A stretch of DNA of 64,000 nt from a virus. This document shows positions 25,732-28,901 of this stretch, piece after piece (within the stretch, counting starts at the first letter, position 1; every line of letters starts with the position of its first letter). The notes under the pieces were generated by a model. That model was not told where the DNA came from. It searched no databases and saw nothing but the letters and a program-made list of their open reading frames with translations. The stretch is from the IMG/VR virus record IMGVR_UViG_3300028608_000008, positions 60,246 through 124,245 of that record; one strand, 5' to 3'. The position numbers and the translations under genes are program-made.

Positions 25732-25784
25732 AAACGACCAAACACACAAACATTTTTTCAGTGAACCGTAAAAAGGAATACATC

Positions 25785-26603
25785 ATGACTACTGCAACCC
25801 ACACCACCGTTGCCATGCTGACCGTTGCTGTTGCTCAACTGGCTCGCCTGAACCGCGAAGCGAAAAAGAATGGCGGTGAAGCGCTGTTCTCGCTGGGCAC
25901 CGATATGGGCAACGGCGTTACTTGGCGCGAACTGAGCGCTTGGGCAAAAGCGCAAAAGGCAAAAGCTGCCGAAGTTTCCGCCGAACCGGTGAAACCAACC
26001 GCTGGCAAAAAGGCGCCTGCCGGTGCCAAGCGTGAACCGTCGAAGCTGTCCACCATTTCGGATGCAATCAATCCGAAATCGGCTGCAAACAAATCGGAAG
26101 CCGTCGCGCTGAAAGCCAGCGAAGTTCGCGACCAAATTGTTTTGATCGGTCGCACCAAAGAAACCGTAGTTCGTATCGGCACCGAGAAATCCAGCGGCAT
26201 GCGTGTTGCGACCACTGACAAAGGCACCATCATTCCTTTCGCCAGCATCGAGCGCAACAATCGTGGCAATCTGCGCGTGAAGCCTGCCGACGAACAAATG
26301 GTTTCGAAGGCCGCGCCGAAAGCTACTCCGAAAGTCGCTGCCGCCCCGGTCAAAGAAGGCGTGCGCAATCTGGAAATCGGCACCAGCACCAACATTTCGG
26401 CGGCATCGTATGACAAAGCCCGCAAAGTGTTGACCGTTGCTTTCCACAGCGGTTCGGTTTACGAGTACAAAGGCGTGACCCTGAAAGACATTAAAGAGTT
26501 TGAAGCCGCCAAGTCGAAAGGCGCTCATATCTCCAAGGTCATCAAACCTGCCAAAGACGTTGTTTGTGTAGCCAAGGCTCCACGCAAACAAAAGGCAGCG
26601 TAA
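25785..26603 (+). CDS. Lys/Ala-rich protein with C-terminal KTSC domain
   Basis: STNISAASYDKARKVLTVAFHSGSVYEYKGV...FEAAKSKGAHISKVIK is a KTSC signature; AAGGA RBS before ATG 25785. Confidence 0.85.
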   Translation: MTTATHTTVAMLTVAVAQLARLNREAKKNGGEALFSLGTDMGNGVTWRELSAWAKAQKAKAAEVSAEPVKPTAGKKAPAGAKREPSKLSTISDAINPKSAANKSEAVALKASEVRDQIVLIGRTKETVVRIGTEKSSGMRVATTDKGTIIPFASIERNNRGNLRVKPADEQMVSKAAPKATPKVAAAPVKEGVRNLEIGTSTNISAASYDKARKVLTVAFHSGSVYEYKGVTLKDIKEFEAAKSKGAHISKVIKPAKDVVCVAKAPRKQKAA

Positions 26604-26618
26604 CAGCAACGAAAATTC

Positions 26619-26646
26619 AAGGCGATTCGAGGGAGTCGCCTTTTTT
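26619..26646 (+). terminator. Intrinsic terminator after KTSC gene
   Basis: aaggcgatt-cgaggg-agtcgcctt followed by a T run. Confidence 0.75.
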
Positions 26647-26664
26647 CGTATGAGGTGCAAACAA

Positions 26665-26892
26665 ATGGCTATCGGCTGGGCCAAAGAAGGCGACGGCGAA
26701 CTAGAGGCCGAAAACGAAATCGCCGAAGGCATCCAGAATGCACGCGACGAACTCGCAAAGTCGCAAGGTGCCGAAGAACAAACGTGGTGCATTGATTGTG
26801 GCGATTTTATTGACGAAGGGCGGCGCCTTGCCATTCCCAACGTTCAACGCTGCACACACTGCCAATCAAAACTGGAAAGGAAAACCCGATAA
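26665..26892 (+). CDS. TraR/DksA C4-type zinc finger protein (YbiI-like)
   Basis: MAIGWA...CIDCGDFIDEGRRLAIPNVQRCTHCQ closely follows the YbiI/TraR pattern; GAGG RBS. Confidence 0.9.
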   Translation: MAIGWAKEGDGELEAENEIAEGIQNARDELAKSQGAEEQTWCIDCGDFIDEGRRLAIPNVQRCTHCQSKLERKTR

Positions 26893-28901
26893 TGCAAACT
26901 CCAATGACCAAAGGCCAACGCAAACAAGCCCGCGACGATTGGCATCTGCGCTGGAATCAAGCGCTCAAACATACCGGCCTTGACCGCATTTACAAAACCA
27001 ATCTGCGCTTTGATATGACCACAAACAAAGCCAACAAGGAAACCCGGTTCACGGCCATTGGCTTTGCCCATATTCAGAATATCCCACAAACGTTTACCAT
27101 CGTCGGCTACGCAACCGGCGAGCAGAAAAATGGCCGCGCCTGTTTCGATATCTACGACCTATCCTATAGCCTCGGTTCGGATGTTGAAATGCAAATCGAC
27201 ACCGACGCCGAAGATATGCCGCCGTTGGCTGGCGACCTGACCGAAATCGGCCCGGCCATTCTCAACCGCATTTTCGAAAGTTTGCACGCGCAGTTGCCAG
27301 CGGTCGAACGCTCCAAAGCGGAAGCCGAACAAGATCGCCGCGCCTGTGACGAAACCCTGAAAAAGTTGGTACAGGCAGCGGTCAAGAAATGCCACGCTAA
27401 AGGCATCGCGTTTCAGTTTATTGAAGCGTACCGCTTTTTCAGTGACACCCGCGTAGAACAACCGTACTACGCAAAAGCTGTTTTCAAGATCAACGAACAG
27501 CACAGCGACATTCGTTTCAAGTTTAAGCGTATCGGCACCGAACAGGAATTCGTTCTGGAATCGGTCACGGTTGACGGGCGGGATCGCGAAATCAATTTCC
27601 GCGTGTCGCCGTTCACTGTTCAAAACGCAATCGTTGTCGGTATGCGCAACGCAATCAAATGGATCAAAGAGGGATTCAAGATGGACTCCACTGCAATCGA
27701 AAAAGACCCGGTAGCCGAACAAGTTGGCGCCAAGAAAACCCCGGCTGCGAAAAAGCCAGCCGTGAAAAAGACCGCCAAGGTTATCGAAAACGGCGAACTG
27801 AAAGATGCGCCAAAAGGCGCGGTCAAAGTCGTGAAGAAAAAGCCAGCCGTCAAACGTGCAGCCCGTCCGACCAAAGCTGAACTGGCCGCGAAGCCAATCC
27901 CGAAAATCAAAACCAGCCCGGACGATTTCAAGAATCTGGCAAACGGCATTATGGGCAAACCTCCGGTGGAAGAACTGAACGAAGACCAGCAACAGATTGT
28001 TCGCGTCTTTGCCGATCAACTCGGTGAGCCAGTTTCGAAATTCACAATGGCGACCGAACTCACGGCGACCGGCGCTGACGAACTCGACCTCGTTGAAATC
28101 GTGATGCAAATCGAAGAAGAATTCGAGTTTGATATGCCCGACAACATCGAGCACGAATGCAAAACCATTGGCGACCTGTACACCCACGTCGCCGAGAAAA
28201 AGGCCGAACTCGCCGCAGCCGCCGCAGCACAACCCAAAACCAAAGCGCGCCGCGCTTCGAAAGCGAAGGTCGAAGCGGAAACCGGCAAACAACCGCGCAT
28301 GACCACGCCGAAACCGAAGGCGAAAGGCAAACCGAAAGCCGCTGGTTCTGCAAACTTCGACGCGGTTAATGACGGCAAGCTGGCGAACCGTTCGAACAAC
28401 CAAACGGCGAAACCTTTGCCTGCGCCGAAAACCAAAGCCGATTCGCTCAAGTGGGATTCGCTGGACGAGGCGGAACTGGTGCGCATGCGCAAACAGTTGG
28501 TGACGACCGCCACCCGAATCAAACTGTTGGAACGGGCGAAAGAAAACGGCGTGACCGCCTCGGTTCAAGTGACCGCTGACGTGAAAGCGAAAATGAAAGA
28601 CGAACTGTTGATTGCCGAAATCAAACAGTTGGCAAACCTCTACGGCTTCACGTTCTACAAAGCGAAAAAGGTCGAAGACTTCGCCGACAAGTTTACGCTC
28701 AAGCGCACGTATATGGACGGCACCAAAGTCGCAATCGTGATTCATTACGACGACAGTTCGCAACACCGTTTCGTAATGGAAACCGATAAGCTGCCGAAAG
28801 GCGCGAAGAACAGCCTCCACACGCTGCCGGTCGAACTGAAAACCAAAGCGCAGATGTTGGCCGTACTGCGCAAGCTGGGCGCCACCAACAACCGGAAGTA
28901 A
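26892..28901 (+). CDS. Multidomain protein with histone-H1-like AKP-rich linkers and an acyl carrier protein-like domain (Ser to Glu)
   Basis: 27981-28206 reads IVRVFADQLG...GADELDLVEIVMQIEEEFEFDMPD...KTIGDLY and aligns with AcpP (GADSLDTVELVMALEEEF..EIPD). Confidence 0.85.
   Translation: MQTPMTKGQRKQARDDWHLRWNQALKHTGLDRIYKTNLRFDMTTNKANKETRFTAIGFAHIQNIPQTFTIVGYATGEQKNGRACFDIYDLSYSLGSDVEMQIDTDAEDMPPLAGDLTEIGPAILNRIFESLHAQLPAVERSKAEAEQDRRACDETLKKLVQAAVKKCHAKGIAFQFIEAYRFFSDTRVEQPYYAKAVFKINEQHSDIRFKFKRIGTEQEFVLESVTVDGRDREINFRVSPFTVQNAIVVGMRNAIKWIKEGFKMDSTAIEKDPVAEQVGAKKTPAAKKPAVKKTAKVIENGELKDAPKGAVKVVKKKPAVKRAARPTKAELAAKPIPKIKTSPDDFKNLANGIMGKPPVEELNEDQQQIVRVFADQLGEPVSKFTMATELTATGADELDLVEIVMQIEEEFEFDMPDNIEHECKTIGDLYTHVAEKKAELAAAAAAQPKTKARRASKAKVEAETGKQPRMTTPKPKAKGKPKAAGSANFDAVNDGKLANRSNNQTAKPLPAPKTKADSLKWDSLDEAELVRMRKQLVTTATRIKLLERAKENGVTASVQVTADVKAKMKDELLIAEIKQLANLYGFTFYKAKKVEDFADKFTLKRTYMDGTKVAIVIHYDDSSQHRFVMETDKLPKGAKNSLHTLPVELKTKAQMLAVLRKLGATNNRK

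What the first reader, a model, noticed from the sequence alone, without database searches (positions are those of the whole stretch)
27981..28206. Phage acyl carrier protein domain with the phosphopantetheine serine replaced by glutamate
Seen: the domain aligns over its length with AcpP (QLG, GADxLD, VEIVM, EEEF, PD, T), but codon 28080-28082 is GAA, giving GADELD instead of GADSLD. Established: that serine is the invariant 4'-phosphopantetheine attachment site, and AcpP also binds SpoT, MukB, IscS and lipid-synthesis enzymes. Inference: a non-modifiable, acidic ACP mimic (decoy) tethered between histone-H1-like Lys/Ala/Pro linkers. It could occupy SpoT, MukBEF, AcpS/Fab enzymes or an ACP-dependent defence protein. 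It cannot act as a canonical carrier.
Basis: partly seen in the sequence, partly recalled or inferred. Interest (0 to 1): 0.82.

Follow-up and report, generated by a model that had tools for sequence, protein, structure and literature searches.

The report
Serine-less acyl carrier domain in phage protein
A 669-residue protein of a giant phage carries, in the middle of a floppy basic linker, a true copy of the bacterial acyl carrier protein fold. The serine that must hold the cofactor is a glutamate, so the domain cannot carry fatty acids and most likely works by binding other proteins; which ones is unknown.

Summary
Codon 28080-28082 is GAA (Glu397 of the 669-aa ORF 26892-28901). Residues ~360-441 are a genuine ACP-fold domain: Pfam PP-binding 38 bits against a cut-off of 20.8, and it aligns GADELD to GADSLD of solved ACPs.

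All 20 stand-alone viral ACPs and all 80 best cellular ACPs used as controls keep Asp-Ser.

The window is a fragment of a jumbo phage related to Pseudomonas phages PaBG, Lu11 and HRDY3. The host protein belongs to a very small jumbo-phage family: 7 hits among 1.84 billion representatives. Only two members carry the ACP insert; the others have only the Lys/Ala/Pro linker. In the second carrier the same site is broken by a 4-residue insertion.

The domain is the least conserved part of the protein (43% identity, against 58-74% for the flanking domains). Its acidic helix II/III docking face stays nearly canonical.

Ser to Asp/Glu also occurs in Lu11_0346 and in the "acyl carrier proteins" of three Ackermannviridae genera, which I checked here. 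This scan had already noted that class on other DNA.

Best reading: a non-carrier, protein-binding ACP module (adaptor or decoy). A drifting acidic relic remains a serious rival. No partner was identified. The flanking domains have only generic folds.

The parts
26892..28901 (+). Gene for the 669-aa multidomain protein (P0001). The start may instead be the Met at codon 5, as in the database copy P0003 (665 aa).
   Evidence: ORF list and translation. Homologues P0004-P0012.
26892..27686 (+). N-terminal conserved domain (res 1-265): two helix / 4-strand sheet / helix modules. This is the family's hallmark.
   Evidence: 74% identical to P0004. About 50 invariant residues over 9 sequences. AF2 pLDDT 80, pTM 0.68. 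Only generic fold matches, Z <= 7.5.
27687..27965 (+). Basic Lys/Ala/Pro-rich linker 1 (res 266-358), including the motif P-T-K-A-E-L-A-A-K-P-I-P-K shared with ACP-less relatives.
   Evidence: pI 10.2, 23 K+R, 16 A and 11 P in 93 residues. The motif is seen in P0006, P0007, P0010 and P0011. pLDDT below 50 at the domain border.
27966..28214 (+). ACP-fold (PP-binding) domain, res 359-441, pI 4.05.
   Evidence: Pfam, PHROG and PDB matches. Present only in P0001/P0003 and P0004.
28080..28082 (+). GAA codon = Glu397 at the position of the phosphopantetheine-bearing Ser.
   Evidence: alignment to 2ehs; alignment to the Ser-bearing ACP P0013.
28215..28436 (+). Basic linker 2 (res 442-515).
   Evidence: pI 11.0, 18 K+R, 17 A and 8 P in 74 residues. 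pLDDT below 50.
28437..28898 (+). C-terminal conserved domain (res 516-669): helical hairpin, then 4-strand sheet, then helix.
   Evidence: 58% identical to P0004. AF2 pLDDT 80. Fold matches are generic: Med17C, TriTu, frataxin, RWD/E2-like, Z <= 8.6.
26650..26892 (+). Upstream neighbour: an 80-aa DksA/TraR-type C4 zinc-finger protein. Its stop overlaps the target's start (ATGA).
   Evidence: PF01258 E 2e-10 and phrog_54 E 1e-14. Overlap seen in the sequence. Absent at this place in relative L001.
25761..26603 (+). Upstream neighbour: a 280-aa KTSC-domain protein, also with an Ala/Lys/Pro-rich stretch. Its synteny with the family is conserved.
   Evidence: PF13619 E 1e-15. A KTSC protein lies directly upstream of the family gene in L001 too.

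Best explanation
An ACP-fold domain was inserted into the disordered basic linker of a jumbo-phage-specific protein. ACP genes are common in this phage clade. The domain has lost its carrier function because Glu397 replaces the Ser, so no 4'-phosphopantetheine can be attached. What it keeps is the ACP docking face: the acidic helix II and the following EEEF...PD segment. It therefore most likely acts as a tethered protein-binding module, an adaptor or decoy for a host or phage protein that recognises ACP, and it is held on whatever the N- and C-terminal modules and the basic linkers bind. Shown: the homology, the missing Ser, the domain's insert status, the retained acidic face, and recurrence of Ser to Asp/Glu in other phage ACP homologues. 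Inferred: that it binds a partner, and which partner.
For: The ACP homology is above Pfam's cut-off and the Glu aligns to the Ser. Helix II/III is almost canonical: G-A-D-E-L-D-L-V-E-I-V-M-Q-I-E-E-E-F against L-G-A-D-S-L-D-x-V-E-L-V-M-x-x-E-E-E-F in cellular ACPs. Its score against a Ser-bearing ACP (50.7 bits) is nearly as high as against its own orthologue (56.2 bits). The helix II-IV part is 56% identical between the two carriers, similar to the C-domain. The same acidic replacement recurs independently: Lu11_0346 has G-V-D-D-L-D. Ackermannviridae 'ACPs' have G-G-D-D/E-L-D in the three genera Kuttervirus, Limestonevirus and Taipeivirus. By contrast, 20/20 viral and 80/80 cellular controls keep Ser. 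No PPTase and no second ACP were found on the 124-kb fragment. Precedents from papers: apo-AcpP stimulates MukB as well as holo-AcpP does (PMC8602292); apo-ACP inhibits glycerol-3-phosphate acyltransferase more strongly than holo-ACP (review PMC3896788); Plasmodium mACP (Ser to Phe) is a Ppant-independent binding subunit of Isd11-Nfs1 (PMC8547962).
Against: No partner is known and none could be tested. The insert is absent from most family members (P0005-P0012), so the parent protein works without it. It is the least conserved part of the protein: 43% overall, and 26% in helix I plus loop. With only two sequences, selection cannot be measured, and the DNA of P0004 could not be fetched. The genome fragment is only about 44% complete, so the absence of a PPTase or other ACP genes is weak evidence.
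Confidence: 0.5

Rival explanations
1. The domain is a drifting relic or a mere acidic spacer. After being captured in the linker it lost its carrier role and has no specific partner. At most it serves as a folded, very acidic block (pI 4) that balances or masks the two basic linkers (pI 10-11), for instance by competing with nucleic acid for them.
For: The insert is optional in the family. It has the lowest identity of all segments, below even the linkers: 43% against 57-62%. The attachment site is damaged in two different ways in the only two carriers, Glu here and a 4-residue insertion in P0004. In P0004 Pfam PP-binding falls below its cut-off at 18.8 bits and covers only helix II-IV. The linker of this family also accepts other inserts: P0006 has an unrelated stretch of about 100 residues.
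Against: The frame is open and the fold signature is intact in both carriers. Helix II/III remains close to the cellular consensus. The replacement is acidic, as in the independent phage lineages where the Ser-less form is conserved across genera. Random decay would not be expected to pick Asp/Glu each time. However, an acidic residue or N-cap at the start of helix II may be structurally favoured (my inference).
Confidence: 0.33
2. The domain docks on a protein of the phage itself and is a structural or regulatory part of a phage complex, not a mimic aimed at host enzymes. Candidate partners are its own C- or N-terminal modules, the KTSC protein, or the DksA/TraR-like protein whose gene overlaps its start.
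For: The gene is tightly coupled to the DksA/TraR-like gene (ATGA overlap). That gene is missing next to the ACP-less relative in L001. The C-domain is basic, pI 9.7.
Against: The N- and C-domains are conserved without the insert, and there is no co-variation data. Whether the P0004 contig has the DksA-like gene could not be checked (look-up of encoding contigs closed).
Confidence: 0.12
3. It is still a carrier, or the Glu is a sequencing or assembly artefact.
For: P0004 keeps a Ser in N-A-D-S-V-D. The related phage HRDY3 has Ser-bearing ACPs, one of them fused to a larger protein.
Against: This protein has no Ser in or next to the motif. GAA is at least two substitutions from any Ser codon. 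The database copy P0003 is identical. The orthologue has Glu in the same helix register. From general knowledge, PPTases require the Asp-Ser-Leu Ser.
Confidence: 0.04

Closest known systems
Bacterial type II acyl carrier protein (AcpP; Pfam PF00550, TIGR00517), especially its apo form
   Same: Same fold signature over the whole 67-position profile. Same acidic helix II/III face (D, D, E, EEEF, PD). Very low pI.
   Different: No Ser, so no cofactor. Scores below the equivalog cut-offs. An internal domain of a 669-aa protein, flanked by basic disordered linkers, rather than a free 8-9 kDa protein. Only 32-42% identical to the nearest cellular ACPs.
Ser-less 'acyl carrier proteins' of Ackermannviridae (PhiSH19 F416_gp096, LIMEstone1 ORF107, Menlow gp141) and Pseudomonas jumbo phage Lu11_0346
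   Same: Phage-encoded ACP homologues with Asp or Glu exactly at the Ser position and a conserved D-[DE]-L-D-x-[IV]-E-[IM]-V-[ML]...E-E-E-F helix. None has been studied functionally, as far as six literature searches showed.
   Different: Those are small stand-alone proteins (107-140 aa). This one is an insert in a large protein. It is no closer to them than to Ser-bearing phage ACPs: tblastn E 1e-2 against 1e-4 to 5e-7. The shared substitution is therefore convergent, not inherited.
Plasmodium falciparum mitochondrial ACP (mACP), a Ppant-independent subunit of Isd11-Nfs1 (PMC8547962)
   Same: An ACP fold that lost the Ser and works purely by protein binding through conserved acidic residues.
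   Different: The replacement there is Phe, which packs into the partner. It is eukaryotic, stand-alone, and its partner is known.
Ser-bearing phage ACPs of related jumbo phages (HRDY3 XDJ15383/XDJ15384, phiRSL1 ORF083, Motura, BCSR5)
   Same: They show that ACP genes, including fused ones (236 aa in HRDY3, 162 aa in BCSR5), are common in this kind of phage and are a plausible source of the insert.
   Different: They keep D-S-L-D and are presumably true carriers.

Membership tests
Acyl carrier protein superfamily (Pfam PF00550 PP-binding) | Sequence profile match above the curated cut-off over the whole domain | tested here: met
   38.3 bits (domain alone) and 33.1 bits (whole protein) against a cut-off of 20.8; profile 1-67 of 67.
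Housekeeping AcpP (TIGR00517 / PRK00982 equivalogs) | Score above the equivalog cut-off | tested here: not met
   44.9-50 bits against cut-offs of 66-106.
Functional carrier protein (any ACP/PCP) | Ser of the Asp-Ser-Leu motif at the N-terminus of helix II, for 4'-phosphopantetheine | tested here: not met
   Glu397 (GAA 28080-28082) aligns to the Ser.
Functional carrier protein (any ACP/PCP) | Modification by a phosphopantetheinyl transferase | not testable with these tools
   No PF01648 match on the 124-kb fragment, but the genome is only about 44% complete. Needs mass spectrometry.
Functional carrier protein (any ACP/PCP) | Acidic helix II recognition surface | tested here: met
   D396, D399, E402 and E408-E410 are kept. 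The motif is compared with 80 cellular ACPs.
Ackermannviridae-type Ser-less ACP look-alikes | Asp/Glu at the Ser position in an ACP fold | tested here: met
   G-A-D-E-L-D here; G-G-D-D/E-L-D in PhiSH19, LIMEstone1 and Menlow.
Ackermannviridae-type Ser-less ACP look-alikes | Specific common descent: closer to that family than to Ser-bearing ACPs, and a stand-alone protein of about 110 aa with their N-terminal extension | tested here: not met
   tblastn E 1e-2 to LIMEstone1 against 1e-4 to 5e-7 for Ser-bearing phage ACPs. The architecture differs.
Jumbo-phage family of P0004-P0012 (unnamed) | Conserved N-terminal double module and C-terminal hairpin-sheet domain joined by a basic linker | tested here: met
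   Profile search: 7 hits in 1.84e9 representatives, E from 1e-111 to 1e-297 for N-domain holders. Alignments.
UBC/RWD-like, frataxin-like or NTF2/VirB8-like folds (for the flanking domains) | Fold match clearly above background | tested here: inconclusive
   Best Z 7.5 (N) and 8.6 (C), within the tool's stated background. Foldseek TM 0.2-0.4.

The most novel reading that the evidence does not exclude
Ser to Asp/Glu ACP look-alikes are a convergent phage device. The carboxylate would sit where the phosphate of holo-ACP sits, so the protein would imitate holo-ACP without being a substrate, and would capture or block host enzymes that dock ACP (lipid or LPS synthesis, condensin-type complexes, or an ACP-dependent defence). 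In this phage the device has been built into a large protein whose H1-like linkers tie it to nucleic acid or another scaffold, so the captured host factor would be relocated rather than merely titrated.
Probability: 0.15. Interest if true: 0.8.

Novelty: new variant of a known kind. Interest (0 to 1): 0.45.

Why it matters
ACP is one of the most connected proteins in a bacterial cell. A phage-made ACP that cannot be loaded is a natural probe for which ACP contacts matter during infection. This instance adds two things to the Ser-less phage ACPs that databases still label 'acyl carrier protein'. First, the acidic replacement has arisen again independently. Second, the module can be used as a tethered internal domain, not only as a free small protein. 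In practical terms, automatic annotation as a carrier or 'auxiliary metabolic gene' is wrong for such genes. The weight of this particular case is limited. Only two sequences exist, the phage is uncultured, its host is unknown, and relaxed constraint is not excluded. Ackermannviridae and Lu11 are better experimental entry points.

Tried and rejected
1. Phage database by protein and DNA: no relative of the whole protein or of 20 kb around it.
2. Word-indexed search with the domain alone: nothing.
3. JGI metagenome scan with the family profile: nothing.
The contigs of P0004-P0006 were therefore not available: no codon-level comparison, no dN/dS, and no check of whether the DksA-like neighbour travels with the insert.
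7. Fold searches of the N- and C-domains (Foldseek PDB, VIA wide, ESM Atlas) gave only generic alpha/beta matches. I assign no function from them. The frataxin-like hit of the C-domain (Z 7.6) is within background, and I do not build an Fe-S/IscS story on it.
8. Donor or host search: the nearest cellular ACPs are 32-42% identical and spread over Steroidobacteraceae, Myxococcaceae and others, with no donor standing out.
9. A promoter-like hexamer pair inside the domain (28093-28122) is no more than the shuffles give.
10. SpoT as target: I rate it unlikely, because apo-ACP is reported not to bind SpoT.
11. Lu11_0346 has no close relatives among isolates, so conservation of its Asp could not be assessed.
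Its fold rests on sequence evidence.

Full report
**What is there**

The window is the second half of a 124,245-bp IMG/VR virus record that CheckV rates about 44% complete. Its tail and baseplate proteins match phage families. Its baseplate hub is 40-51% identical to those of Pseudomonas jumbo phages PaBG, HRDY3 and Lu11. It is therefore a fragment of an uncultured jumbo phage of that broad group; the host is unknown.

The finding lies in one long ORF, 26892..28901 (+), 669 aa. Codon 28080-28082 is GAA, which gives T-G-A-D-E-L-D with Glu397.

**Is it an ACP domain?**

Yes.
- Residues about 360-441 match Pfam PP-binding over all 67 profile positions: E 1.6e-9, 38 bits, cut-off 20.8.
- They match the phage family phrog_5934 'acyl carrier protein' at E 1e-15.
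- They match 88 distinct solved ACP sequences. The best alignment (2ehs, E 3e-10) puts the Glu opposite the Ser of G-A-D-S-L-D.
- NCBIfam AcpP equivalogs score only 45-50 bits against cut-offs near 70. It is a member of the superfamily, not an AcpP orthologue.

**How unusual is the Glu?**

I used two controls.
- The 20 stand-alone ACPs on IMG/VR contigs that share its helix II/III words all have D-S.
- The 80 best cellular ACPs in GTDB genomes all have D-S.

Five annotated phage ACPs (phiRSL1, Motura, BCSR5 and two Vibrio phages) also keep the Ser. GAA is at least two substitutions from any Ser codon.

**Architecture and family**

The protein has five parts:

| Residues | Part | pI |
|---|---|---|
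| 1-265 | N-terminal domain | 8.6 |
| 266-358 | Lys/Ala/Pro-rich linker 1 | 10.2 |
| 359-441 | ACP domain | 4.05 |
| 442-515 | Basic linker 2 | 11.0 |
| 516-669 | C-terminal domain | 9.7 |

An exhaustive profile search of 1.84 billion representatives found only seven proteins. The word-indexed search of 5.8 billion clusters found four. One relative lies on a 275-kb viral contig (L001).

All relatives share the N-domain, and most share the C-domain, joined by a basic linker. Only this protein and P0004 (677 aa, 58% identical, on a 124-kb contig) contain the ACP domain. The domain is therefore a lineage-specific insert in a linker. That linker also tolerates other inserts: P0006 has an unrelated stretch of about 100 residues.

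The related phage HRDY3 has two adjacent Ser-bearing ACP genes, one of them a 236-aa fusion. Phage ACP genes are thus a plausible source of the insert.

**Is Glu fixed in homologues?**

This cannot be answered properly, because there is a single other carrier. In P0004 the site reads L-N-A-D-S-V-D-A-E-I-D-V-L-E-M. Relative to canonical ACPs there is a 4-residue insertion exactly here.
- phmmer aligns its Ser to the canonical Ser and treats V-D-A-E as the insert.
- MAFFT keeps helix II in register and aligns its Glu with Glu397.
- Pfam PP-binding drops below its cut-off in P0004 (18.8 bits) and starts only after the site.

Either way, the attachment site is non-canonical in both carriers.

**Conservation between the two carriers**

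| Segment | Identity, P0001 vs P0004 |
|---|---|
| N-domain | 74% |
| Linkers | 57-62% |
| C-domain | 58% |
| ACP domain, overall | 43% |
| ACP helix I plus loop | 26% |
| ACP helix II-IV | 56% |

The ACP domain is the fastest-evolving part, yet its docking face is as conserved as the C-domain. It is also very close to the cellular consensus. The domain scores 50.7 bits against an ordinary Ser-bearing ACP, against 56.2 bits for its own orthologue.

**Recurrence in other phages**

tblastn with the domain hit Lu11_0346, a 140-aa protein of a related jumbo phage. Its ACP domain (PP-binding 25.7 bits) reads G-V-D-D-L-D, with Asp at the Ser site.

Notes from this scan claimed that Vi01-like phages have Ser-less ACPs. 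I checked this in three Ackermannviridae genera:
- PhiSH19 (Kuttervirus) has G-G-D-D-L-D.
- LIMEstone1 (Limestonevirus) has G-G-D-E-L-D.
- Menlow (Taipeivirus) has G-G-D-E-L-D.

All three are annotated 'acyl carrier protein'. CcrSwift and ICP1 gp97 keep the Ser.

The present domain is no closer to the Ackermannviridae proteins (E 1e-2) than to Ser-bearing phage ACPs (E 1e-4 to 5e-7). The acidic replacement has therefore arisen independently at least three times. Six literature searches found no paper that discusses this.

**Flanking domains and neighbours**

AF2 models are usable, with pLDDT about 80. Each shows helix / four-strand sheet / helix modules: two in the N-domain and one, after a helical hairpin, in the C-domain. 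Foldseek, VIA and the ESM Atlas give only generic matches: Med17C, RWD/E2-like, frataxin, capping protein, VirB8/NTF2-like, with Z <= 8.6. No function follows from them.

Upstream lie two genes:
- A KTSC-domain protein, whose synteny is conserved in L001.
- An 80-aa DksA/TraR zinc-finger gene, whose stop overlaps the target's start. It is absent in L001.

No PPTase and no second ACP are on the fragment. This is weak evidence, given the 44% completeness.

**Mechanism**

Shown: the domain cannot be phosphopantetheinylated at the canonical site, and it keeps the acidic surface through which ACPs dock on their clients.

Inferred: it acts as a tethered binding module.

Published work shows that such cofactor-independent ACP functions exist:
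- Apo-AcpP stimulates MukB ATPase as well as holo-AcpP does (PMC8602292).
- Apo-ACP inhibits glycerol-3-phosphate acyltransferase more strongly than holo-ACP does, whereas SpoT does not bind apo-ACP (review PMC3896788).
- Plasmodium mACP (Ser to Phe) is a pure binding subunit (PMC8547962).

The repeated choice of Asp or Glu may mimic the phosphate of holo-ACP, or may simply cap helix II. I cannot tell which.

The main rival is that the insert is a drifting acidic block, perhaps buffering the basic linkers. This rival is supported by the insert being dispensable in the family and by its low overall conservation.

I put the binding-module reading at about 0.5, the relic/spacer at about 0.33, an intra-phage partner at about 0.12, and carrier or artefact at about 0.04.

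**Verdict**

This is a new architectural variant (an internal, tethered domain) of a recurrent but unstudied kind of phage protein that this scan has met before on other DNA. Interest is moderate. The class is more interesting than this rare, uncultured instance.

Noticed in passing
window 26650-26892 (+): An 80-aa DksA/TraR-type C4 zinc-finger protein (PF01258 E 2e-10; phrog_54). Its stop codon overlaps the start of the ACP-bearing gene (ATGA). A strong terminator-like hairpin (26619-26642, 10 pairs plus a T run) lies just upstream. The gene is absent at the matching place in relative L001.
   Followed up: partly
window 25761-26603 (+); L001 4844-5917: A KTSC-domain protein (PF13619) with its own Ala/Lys/Pro-rich stretch lies directly upstream of the family gene, both here and in the 275-kb relative. 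This is a conserved gene pair of unknown function.
   Followed up: partly
L004 2270-2692 (Pseudomonas phage Lu11, Lu11_0346): A 140-aa 'hypothetical protein' whose C-terminal half is an ACP domain with Asp at the Ser site (G-V-D-D-L-D). It has no close relative among isolated phages.
   Followed up: partly
L032, L033, L034 (PhiSH19, LIMEstone1, Menlow): The proteins annotated 'acyl carrier protein' in three Ackermannviridae genera have Asp or Glu instead of the cofactor Ser (G-G-D-D/E-L-D). The annotation as a carrier is therefore probably wrong.
   Followed up: partly
L031 708-1677 (Pseudomonas phage HRDY3): Two adjacent Ser-bearing ACP genes. One is a 236-aa protein with an unknown 150-aa N-terminal part fused to the ACP domain.
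   Followed up: no
P0006 (658 aa; residues ~275-375), relative on a 272-kb contig: The same linker that holds the ACP insert here holds a different, unrelated insert of about 100 residues in P0006. The linker of this family seems to be a landing place for extra domains.
   Followed up: no
window 26892-27686 and 28437-28898: The two modules of the N-domain and the C-domain all look like the same helix / four-strand sheet / helix unit (RWD/E2-like matches, Z 5-8.6). They may be three diverged copies of one module. Cys167 is invariant in nine sequences.
   Followed up: no
window 56770-58161 (+): A 463-aa protein matching phrog_6215 'glutathionylspermidine synthase' at E 2e-104, an unusual metabolic gene for a phage.
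   Followed up: no
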